Positions 2,188 to 3,282 of a DNA stretch of 64,000 nucleotides are shown here, in pieces. Both the position numbers and the translations under genes were made by a program. The stretch comes from Candidatus Sulfomarinibacteraceae bacterium (GTDB taxonomy: Bacteria; Acidobacteriota; Thermoanaerobaculia; Thermoanaerobaculales; Sulfomarinibacteraceae). The notes under the pieces are model-generated. The model did no database searches. It had not been told where the DNA came from and was given only the letters and a program-made list of their open reading frames with translations. The DNA lies in NCBI GenBank assembly GCA_963796455.1, contig CAWCLO010000001.1, forward strand, positions 1,248,001 through 1,312,000, given 5' to 3'. Numbering within the stretch: the stretch's first letter is position 1; every line of letters starts with the position of its first letter.

Positions 2188-2344
2188 ATGCTGGATGCTA
2201 GATGCTAGATGCGGCGAAATCTTCGATTGGTCCTGAAGCGTTGTCAGGGGCTCCACCGGAACCGATGATGATTTGCGCTCGATGGGACTTTTCAGGAAAA
2301 AGGTTCAATCGAGTATCGAGCATTGTGTCTCCAGCATCCAGTAT
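2188..2344. repeat. Inverted heptamer tracts: GATGCTR at about 2188-2212 and degenerate AGYATC-containing heptamers at about 2309-2344
   Basis: atgctggatgctagatgctagatgc faces tcgagtatcgagcat...ccagcatccagtat. The right tract is interrupted by the element at 2345. Confidence 0.8.
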
Positions 2345-2600
2345 CACTGCTGTCCAAAACAGATTGTCATGATGTTACCCACCTGACAACACGTGGTTTA
2401 CGGGTTGGTTTTTGGCATTTCCGGTTCGCGGTTGGCACGTACCCGATCCCGATCCCGAATTGCAGCGGCAGCGACAGTGTCCGGCGGCAGCGACAGGGGA
2501 CAGCGAACAGGGACAGCGGTCGGTGTTCAGTGTTCAGCGGCAGCAGCGGCGGCGGCGGCGGCGGCGGCGGCGGCGGCGATCAGGAGTACAGGCGGCGAAG

Positions 2601-2738
2601 TGGCCACCTCCGGGTCGTTCAAAGGAAGGGGTAACCGGTGGGCGGCCGATGTCAAGGACAGGCAGGGTGCAGGGCATCCTTGACATCGGCCACCACACCG
2701 GCTTGTGGGTAGGGGCATGAACGACCCGGAGGTGACCA
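2601..2738 (+). promoter_or_regulatory. Long nested hairpin covering the RBS and start of the four-helix-bundle gene
   Basis: 2601-2621 pairs with 2718-2738 (20/21, including GGAGGT and the A of ATG). 2644-2658 pairs with 2677-2691 (15/15). Confidence 0.75.
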
Positions 2739-3091
2739 TGTCCTCAGCCGCCACGAACACCAACCTCGTTGCCCACTCGAAAGCCCTCGAAGCTGCAGGC
2801 ATCGCGATCAAACTCGTGATGAGGGTTCCGGCTCCTCTGAAGTCGATAGCCGATCAGGTGATCCGTTCAGCAAGTTCGGTCCCTGCGAATCTGGCAGAAG
2901 GGCACGGCCGAGTCGGTAGAGACCGGTCAAACCACTGGAGAATCGCCTACGCCTCGGCGAAAGAGGTCGACAGCCACTTGAAGCTCCTCGCCCATGCCGG
3001 GGCAATCAGCCCGAACAGAGCCAGTGAAGCGATGAAGGCCTTTGATCAGGTGCGTGCAATGACTTGGAGATTGCTCAACCCGAAGTCTTGA
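2738..3091 (+). CDS. Four helix bundle protein (23S rRNA-IVP / TIGR02436 / bAvd-like), 117 aa
   Basis: DQVIRSASSVPANLAEGHGR and IAYASAKEV signature. GGAGGT RBS precedes ATG 2738. Confidence 0.92.
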   Translation: MSSAATNTNLVAHSKALEAAGIAIKLVMRVPAPLKSIADQVIRSASSVPANLAEGHGRVGRDRSNHWRIAYASAKEVDSHLKLLAHAGAISPNRASEAMKAFDQVRAMTWRLLNPKS

Positions 3092-3282
3092 TTTCAGGGC
3101 CCCATGCCAGTCAAACGTGACGCTGACTCCTGTTCGCTGACGCTGAACACTGATTGCTGTTCCCTGTCCCTGACGCTGATCGCTGTCGCCGTCCCTGAAC
3201 GCTATCCGAGACTCTGTCTTGGACAAGAGTGATCCTGCATCCGGATGGTGGGCGTTACAATAGGCGCTCGCAGGAGAAATAC

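What the first reader, a model, noticed from the sequence alone, without database searches (positions are those of the whole stretch)
2332..3241. Both full-ended copies insert in phase into CAGCATC/GATGCTG heptamer tracts
Seen: deleting copy 1 plus one AT gives cagcatc-cagtATc-ctgcatc. Deleting copy 2 plus one AT gives gatgcaa-gATtcaa-gatgctg-gatgctg. These are the same heptamer family, in opposite orientation relative to the element, and the 7-nt phase is restored in both. Inference: the element targets these intergenic tracts, as some IS elements target REP sequences, so the tracts act as landing pads. Only two sites support this. The AT is self-complementary, so it could instead be part of the TIR.
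Basis: partly seen in the sequence, partly recalled or inferred. Interest (0 to 1): 0.72.

Follow-up and report, generated by a model that had tools for sequence, protein, structure and literature searches.

The report
IS4 mini-element targets seven-base repeat arms
A small jumping element with the ends of an IS4 insertion sequence but no transposase sits between 9-base (not 2-base) duplications, mostly in one family of 7-base tandem repeats and almost always in the same register, likely because the enzyme that moved it prefers a symmetric 9-base site that those pre-existing repeats supply in overlapping copies.

Summary
Copy 1 (2345-3231) and copy 2 (20267-20780) are two of 78 paired copies of a transposase-less element with CAC...GTG ends; copy 1 carries a four-helix-bundle gene. 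The duplication is 9 bp (7+2, so deleting element plus AT also restores phase): flank identity peaks at 9 even outside tracts, and is exact in 18 of 37 and 10 of 20 copies in two congeners. The same ends bound full IS4 elements with exact 9-bp duplications. Targeting is strong: 55 of 154 GATGCTG-family tracts touch an end against 3 of 220 GAATTCG-family tracts; 138 of 140 tract-abutting ends share one register. Tracts are abundant in congeners lacking the ends and form mirror-image arms of four-helix-bundle cassettes, so they are pre-existing targets, not footprints. About a third of copies lie elsewhere; no empty site was found; no cognate transposase was found in this genome. The scan noted this element and targeting before on other DNA of this genome. 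New variant of repeat-targeting IS4.

The parts
2188..2212 (+). Left arm (GATGCTG/GATGCTA units) of the small mirror-image heptamer cassette that copy 1 inserted into
   Evidence: TRF; 115-nt core family of 5 copies; 2186-2344 folds with z -3.9
2308..2344 (+). Right arm (ATCGAGT/ATCGAGC/ATCCAGC/ATCCAGT units) of that cassette; the landing tract of copy 1
   Evidence: sequence
2336..2344 (+). Left 9-bp target duplication of copy 1, ATCCAGTAT
2345..3231 (+). Copy 1, 887-bp non-autonomous element
2345..2362 (+). Terminal inverted repeat, identical over 18 nt to the downstream end of a congener's full IS4
2442..2578 (+). Inner hexamer/GCG-rich arm (CAGCGA-type) of the cargo
2644..2691 (.). Perfect 15-bp inverted repeat upstream of the cargo gene
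   Evidence: read directly from the sequence
2717..3091 (+). Four-helix-bundle (23S rRNA IVP-type) gene, 124 aa
   Evidence: TIGR02436 59 bits over cut-off 24; PF05635 56.4 over 33.8
3118..3203 (+). Inner mirror-image arm (TCGCTG-type) of the cargo
3214..3231 (+). Other terminal inverted repeat, resembles the upstream end of the congener IS4
3232..3240 (+). Right 9-bp target duplication of copy 1, ATCCTGCAT
20258..20266 (+). Left 9-bp target duplication of copy 2, ATGCAAGAT
20267..20780 (+). Copy 2, 514 bp, internally deleted (only the end of the cargo gene is left)
20781..20789 (+). Right 9-bp target duplication of copy 2, ATTCAAGAT
20787..20805 (+). GATGCTG tract ending in GATCC; landing tract of copy 2

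Best explanation
This is a transposase-less element with IS4-family ends that sits between 9-bp duplications in pre-existing GATGCTG/CAGCATC tracts, likely placed there by an IS4 transposase acting from elsewhere that prefers the symmetric site AT-S-C-W-G-S-AT. Shown: the ends, the 9-bp duplication, the enrichment, the fixed register, and that tracts exist without the element. Inferred: the site begins and ends with AT, so a 7-nt tandem tract is a row of overlapping copies of it, one per unit, and only the register centred on the middle W is symmetric; this explains the constant phase, both orientations and the misleading AT. Neighbouring units likely help as extended target arms. The tracts are themselves the mirror-image arms of four-helix-bundle cassettes or their gene-less remnants, so one repeat family lands in the arms of another, in intergenic DNA where it likely does little harm.
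For: 9 bp: identity of last-k left against first-k right peaks at k=9 (0.77 against 0.52 shuffled, 78 pairs); among 32 pairs outside the target class 0.64 against 0.34 (z 10.6) while k=2 gives z 1.9. Congeners: exact in 18 of 37 (G006), 10 of 20 (G034), 2 of 4 (G008); where the unit beside the element differs from both outer neighbours it is identical across the element in 7 of 10, 6 of 9 and, here, 3 of 11. IS4: five 1344-1411 bp elements with the same ends, exact 9-bp duplications and NF033592 transposases at 240-266 bits, cut-off 115; congener G017 has a 1411-bp one sharing the 18-nt end. Targeting: 55 of 154 against 3 of 220, 0 of 50, 0 of 11 and 1 of 109; register 138 of 140; used ends against unused intergenic sites: ATCCAGCAT 55/221, ATCCTGCAT 29/60, but ATCCGAAAT 1/174, ATTCCGAAT 0/117, ATTAGGAAT 1/83, ATAGCCCAT 0/74. 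In G034, 7 of 20 copies use the ATCSWG class (21 tandem-pair matches in that genome) and 3 of 20 the ATTYSGR class (692 matches). Context: 24 of 24 rebuilt empty sites have a neighbouring unit against 484 of 788 unused intergenic sites, p 1.4e-5. Pre-existence: G015 (96% complete) has 242 tract matches and 0 end matches; G031 57 and 0; G004 41 and 0; a four-helix-bundle gene between these arms without IS ends in G015.
Against: No cognate IS4 was found in this genome (90.5% complete), nor in any of the 9 genomes with end matches; the one congener IS4 lies in G017, which has no match to the end pattern, and it sits in other heptamer tracts with no matching duplication. No empty site was seen. 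Only 21 of 78 pairs here are exact, and both window copies have mismatches; 29 of 78 are outside the target class; 26 left and 104 right ends are unpaired. Ten of 46 tract pairs have inverted, not direct, flanks. Outside this family only 3 of 101 ends match ATSCWGSAT within 2 mismatches and 3 of 101 are period-7, so the sharp preference is not shown for any intact transposase. Sites are not all independent (shared flanks at some copies).
Confidence: 0.85

Rival explanations
1. One reading: the element duplicates only AT, or AT belongs to the terminal repeat, and it recognises the tract as such.
For: AT abuts most ends (51 of 78 pairs have the same 2 nt on both sides), and the 2-nt deletion restores phase at both window copies.
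Against: The k=9 peak holds at non-tract sites; rare unit variants are copied across the element; full IS4 elements with the same ends have 9-bp duplications without AT.
Confidence: 0.03
2. Insertion is near random, and selection or local survival leaves copies in intergenic repeats.
For: Only 12 of 253 ends face a called gene; 29 of 78 pairs lie outside the target class.
Against: Equally intergenic and more numerous GAATTCG-family tracts are almost never used (3 of 220), and survival does not explain one register of seven (138 of 140).
Confidence: 0.05
3. The tracts are footprints: each insertion and imprecise excision (9-bp duplication joined over AT) adds one 7-nt unit, so the element builds its own targets.
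For: The arithmetic works (9 - 2 = 7); the unit beside an element often equals the local tract unit.
Against: Long tracts are abundant in congeners with no end matches; they come as mirror-image pairs round cores and four-helix-bundle genes, like other 6-8-mer families; 0 head-to-tail 9-mer doubles in this genome. A past, lost element in those congeners cannot be excluded.
Confidence: 0.05
4. Targeting is protein-assisted: a factor bound to the arms, possibly the four-helix-bundle protein, recruits the IS4 transposase, and the DNA consensus only reflects the arms.
For: Targets are arms of four-helix-bundle cassettes; the preference is sharp only in this family; a different terminal-repeat family with the same cargo sits in another tract family in congeners.
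Against: A recruiter of arms should not ignore the GAATTCG-type arms, which also flank such genes (L232); 311- and 387-bp elements with the same ends and, by inspection, no such gene use the same tracts; elements with these ends elsewhere already lean to AT at both edges of the 9-mer (27 of 101 end in AT, 6.9 expected).
Confidence: 0.1

Closest known systems
IS4 family, IS4Sa subgroup (De Palmenaer et al. 2008, PMC2266710; passages read)
   Same: CA ends, 8-10 bp duplications, 1150-1750 bp for full elements, YREK motif; conserved target arms reported for ISRm22 and the IS4 subgroup
   Different: The window's element has no transposase; subgroup placement was not tested by a tree; the passages read do not describe tandem heptamer targets
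ISRm22 and other REP-targeting insertion sequences (Tobes and Pareja 2006, PMC1525189; passages read)
   Same: An IS4-family element inserting at the symmetry axis of an intergenic repeat; imperfect flanks explained by recombination between copies
   Different: Target is a palindromic REP (6-bp duplication in that paper), used by all copies; here a 7-nt tandem tract, 9-bp duplication, used by about 60% of copies in this genome
Tn5/IS50 target choice (as summarised in PMC1525189; the original paper was not retrieved)
   Same: [quoted passage not shown]
   Different: Shown there with synthetic targets; here natural chromosomal tracts appear to supply the cluster
Bacterial MITEs and cargo-bearing mobile units, e.g. 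Nezha and the IMU (Delihas 2011, PMC3184786; passages read)
   Same: IS ends without transposase, duplications, cognate IS sometimes found only in another species
   Different: Cargo is a four-helix-bundle gene between inverted simple-repeat arms; target is another repeat family
Intergenic heptamer repeats of Xanthomonas and Nostoc (Rehm et al. 2015, PMC4692102; passages read)
   Same: Intergenic 7-nt tracts, often in convergent pairs
   Different: [quoted passage not shown]

Membership tests
Non-autonomous IS4-family derivative (MITE or cassette) | Terminal inverted repeats shared with an autonomous IS4 | tested here: met
   Same ends on five full IS4 elements and a congener's IS4
Non-autonomous IS4-family derivative (MITE or cassette) | Fixed-length target duplication in the IS4 range | tested here: met
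   9 bp in four genomes
Non-autonomous IS4-family derivative (MITE or cassette) | No transposase inside; many dispersed copies | tested here: met
   78 pairs of 341-895 bp; cargo is TIGR02436/PF05635
Non-autonomous IS4-family derivative (MITE or cassette) | Cognate transposase available in the same genome | tested here: inconclusive
   Not found with these queries in a 90.5% complete genome; present in 1 of 24 congeners
Non-autonomous IS4-family derivative (MITE or cassette) | Mobilisation in trans shown | not testable with these tools
   Needs a transposition assay
IS4Sa subgroup (for the cognate IS) | CA ends, 8-10 bp duplication, 1150-1750 bp, YREK motif | tested here: met
   CAC ends, 9 bp, 1344-1411 bp; Y-x2-R-x3-E-x6-K read in the translations; table
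IS4Sa subgroup (for the cognate IS) | Transposase clusters with named IS4Sa members | not tested
   No tree with ISfinder members was built
REP-targeting IS (type 1 of Tobes and Pareja) | Copies break a conserved intergenic repeat at a fixed point | tested here: met
   Register 138 of 140; enrichment
REP-targeting IS (type 1 of Tobes and Pareja) | Target is a REP palindrome and all copies use it | tested here: not met
   Target is a tandem heptamer tract; 29 of 78 pairs are elsewhere
Retroelement moved by reverse transcriptase with an Avd-like partner | Reverse transcriptase in the genome; variable-length duplications | tested here: not met
   PF00078 not found in this genome; duplication length fixed at 9

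The most novel reading that the evidence does not exclude
Heptamer arms and IS ends form a recurring capture cycle: lineage-specific transposases are tuned to the simple-repeat arms of four-helix-bundle cassettes, land in them, and by hitting both arms pick up and spread the cassette. That would give the unexplained bacterial heptamer repeats a role as transposon docking sites and explain how four-helix-bundle (IVS-type) genes move, possibly with the protein itself guiding the transposase.
Probability: 0.15. Interest if true: 0.75.

Novelty: new variant of a known kind. Interest (0 to 1): 0.45.

Why it matters
It extends repeat-targeted transposition from REP palindromes to tandem heptamer tracts, and looks like a natural case of the Tn5 rule that a 9-bp target works best in a cluster of overlapping copies. 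It links two unexplained features of many bacterial genomes, intergenic heptamer repeats and scattered four-helix-bundle genes, through a testable enzyme: an intact IS4 with the same ends exists in a congener. A transposase with a sharp, symmetric, repeat-embedded target could also be of use for directed insertion. The underlying chemistry is ordinary IS4 transposition.

Tried and rejected
Empty sites: four public sediment runs (X1-X4, contigs, about 3-fold depth on unique DNA) were laid on window 1500-21400 and on a second element-rich stretch of this genome. No listed joint skipped a whole element; 79 joints were not shown. This says nothing either way. Orthologous loci in eight congeners were too diverged or rearranged upstream of the AAA gene to give an empty site. 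Transposase in this genome: PF01609 gave one hit with unrelated ends; PF00872 and PF00078 gave none; the IS4 protein query gave none. Footprint doubles: 0. Similarity to the congener IS4 beyond the terminal repeat is weak: local score 48 against a shuffled maximum of 44 for copy 1, and 41 for a G006 copy, so it is not relied on. The simple rule 'any AT-N5-AT' from an earlier scan note was tested and is too loose here. Paper searches found no report of a bacterial IS or MITE targeting heptamer tracts or of this link to four-helix-bundle genes (listings only, except the four papers read as passages); most subscription journals are not in that library, and supplements were not opened. The Tn5 target paper could not be retrieved.

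Full report
Observation. Copy 1 runs from CAC at 2345 to GTG at 3231 and copy 2 from 20267 to 20780. AT lies outside each end, and removing the element with one AT restores a 7-nt phase. Copy 1 holds a 124-aa four-helix-bundle gene (TIGR02436, PF05635) between inverted hexamer-rich arms; copy 2 is internally deleted.

The family. The genome (5.02 Mb, 90.5% complete) has 104 left and 182 right ends at the score used; 78 pair up within 341-895 bp, and 26 left and 104 right ends stay unpaired. TIGR02436 gives 73 matches; 28 of 32 full-length pairs keep a frame of at least 110 aa. The right-end pattern occurs in 9 of 25 genomes of the genus. Named records with the same element are titled Ca. Sulfomarinibacteraceae, so the host is likely of that acidobacterial family (inference).

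The duplication is 9 bp. Comparing the last k bases on the left with the first k on the right gives its main peak at k=9 (0.77 against 0.52 for shuffled pairings; 21 of 78 exact, 38 of 78 within one mismatch), with an echo at 16 = 9 + 7. In the 32 pairs outside the target class, k=9 gives 0.64 against 0.34 (z 10.6) and k=2 only z 1.9; that class included copy 2 and some decayed tracts, and a stricter set of 22 non-periodic sites had 10 at 7 of 9 or better and 1 exact. I fetched part of the copies of three congeners: 37 paired elements of G006 (40 left ends listed), 20 of G034 (40 listed) and 4 of G008 (17 listed). Exact 9-bp duplications were 18 of 37, 10 of 20 and 2 of 4. Where the unit beside the element differs from both outer neighbours, it is identical across the element in 7 of 10 (G006), 6 of 9 (G034) and 3 of 11 (this genome). 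A 2-bp duplication cannot copy those inner bases.

The ends are IS4 ends. Five, in other lineages, are 1344-1411 bp elements with both ends, exact 9-bp duplications that do not end in a shared AT, and DUF4372 + DDE_Tnp_1 transposases scoring 240-266 bits on NF033592, cut-off 115. Congener G017 holds a 1411-bp IS4 whose downstream end equals the element's first 18 nt. CA ends, a 9-bp duplication, size and a YREK motif fit the IS4Sa row of De Palmenaer et al. (PMC2266710, passages); subgroup placement was not tested by a tree. No cognate transposase was found in this genome, so movement in trans is inferred. No Mutator or reverse transcriptase match was found either.

Targeting. Of 544 period-7 tracts, 55 of 154 in the GATGCTG family touch an element end, against 3 of 220 (GAATTCG family), 0 of 50, 0 of 11 and 1 of 109 (Fisher p about 7e-21 for the first contrast). 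Of 140 ends that abut such a tract, 138 are in the register that starts with AT. Target logos from three genomes give the symmetric consensus AT-S-C-W-G-S-AT. AT-N5-AT alone is not enough: used ends against unused intergenic sites were 55/221 for ATCCAGCAT and 29/60 for ATCCTGCAT, but 1/174, 0/117, 1/83 and 0/74 for four abundant AT-N5-AT units of other tract families, and 3/95 and 7/95 for two asymmetric family variants (intergenic DNA from a home-made gene caller, 4216 genes, 85% coding). G034 has 21 tandem-pair matches of the ATCSWG class, 103 of ATCMAAY and 692 of ATTYSGR (some counted on both strands), yet its 20 sampled copies use them 7, 6 and 3 times, with 4 elsewhere. Context matters: all 24 rebuilt empty sites with the consensus have a neighbouring unit, against 484 of 788 unused intergenic sites (p 1.4e-5); G006 gave 13 of 18 and G034 7 of 8. 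The preference is not absolute: 29 of 78 pairs here have neither flank in the class. Among 101 ends in records not titled as this family, 27 end in AT (6.9 expected) and A-T is also favoured at the far edge of the 9-mer, but only 3 match the full consensus within two mismatches and 3 are period-7. So a weak AT...AT bias looks general to these ends, and the sharp tract preference looks lineage-specific.

What the tracts are. The three-unit tract pattern occurs in 21 of 25 genomes, including G015 (242 matches, 96% complete), G031 (57) and G004 (41), which have no end match. In the G015 loci read, the tracts stand mostly as mirror-image pairs round short cores, and once on both sides of a four-helix-bundle gene with no IS ends. 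The four such genes outside the element in this genome each lie between inverted 6-8-mer tracts of other units, and 26 of 30 such loci in five congeners show nearby tracts. Copy 1 sits in the right arm of a 150-nt mirror-image cassette (2188-2344; fold z -3.9), and all 5 copies of that cassette's core have an element end in an arm (two share flank letters and may not be independent). No head-to-tail 9-mer doubles were found. The tracts are therefore best read as pre-existing arms of another repeat family, not footprints.

Mechanism. Shown: IS4 ends, 9-bp duplication, family and register specificity, independence of the tracts. Inferred: an IS4 transposase in trans cuts 9 bp apart about the middle base of ATSCWGSAT; a 7-nt tract of such units is an overlapping row of sites, which fixes phase and allows both orientations. 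Tn5/IS50 is reported to favour a 9-bp target embedded in overlapping similar sequences, and ISRm22 (IS4 family) inserts at the axis of REP palindromes (PMC1525189, passages). Ten of 46 tract pairs have GATGCTG on the left and CAGCATC on the right, and none the reverse. Close arm pairs have that same order (11 against 0), so these likely arose when insertion or adjacent deletion reached both arms and removed the core (inference).

Limits. No empty site was found. The sharp preference is not tied to any intact transposase; the G017 IS4 lies between other heptamer tracts without a matching duplication. Sites and genomes are related, so the p values overstate. Searches found no paper on IS or MITE targeting of heptamer tracts, in a library that lacks most subscription journals; Rehm et al. 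(PMC4692102, passages) generally did not find such repeats with insertion sequences. Earlier unreviewed scan notes on other DNA of this genome reached the IS4, 9-bp and overlapping-site reading, which I had reached before looking; my tests narrow their AT-N5-AT rule to ATSCWGSAT.

Verdict. A new variant of repeat-targeting IS4 transposition, interest 0.45.

Noticed in passing
L026, L027, L028, L029 (G014, G017, G003); L228, L236 (G008): The same four-helix-bundle cargo occurs without IS4 ends; in L026 and L028 it is bounded by a different inverted repeat (CGGCTCATC...GATGAGCC) sitting in AACGTT-containing octamer tracts. A second end family with its own tract target is possible.
   Followed up: no
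L067-L090 (G008, G034): 311-bp and 387-bp elements with the same IS4 ends but other interiors (REP-like hairpins, no four-helix-bundle gene by inspection) use the same and related tracts.
   Followed up: partly
G000 C1:371792-372579 and C1:610713-611495: Copies with right-type ends on both sides and inverted tract flanks; right ends outnumber left ends 182 to 104. Suggests end conversion through the long internal foldback.
   Followed up: no
window 34996-35145 and 18796-18827: Fragments of the element interior without terminal repeats.
   Followed up: no
window 340-501, 4128-4236, 8904-8988, 11029-11133: Further mirror-image tract pairs (GAAAGGGA/TCCTCTGC octamers; GATTTCG, TTCGGAA and AATTCCG heptamers) round short cores, without element ends.
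   Followed up: partly
window 18606-18790: REP-like repeats (GTCATCCTGAGC ... GAAGGATC; label recalled) beside a GATGCTG-family tract at 18470-18512 that carries no element: an unused target.
   Followed up: no
window 41878-41909, 44622-44653, 60846-60877, 63504-63535: Identical AGTTTTG tracts at the same place in four copies of a long repeated region that overlaps long ORFs.
   Followed up: no
L156 (record titled Planctomycetota), L159, L161: Short elements or ends with the same IS4 terminal repeat abut heptamer tracts of other units (GAATTTT/GAATCTT, GATTTTG, GAGTTTT); L156 has tract on both sides. Tract targeting may recur outside this family.
   Followed up: partly
L033 and L044 (G006): Two copies share the same right flank but have different left flanks, a sign of recombination between copies or of flank carried along.
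   Followed up: no
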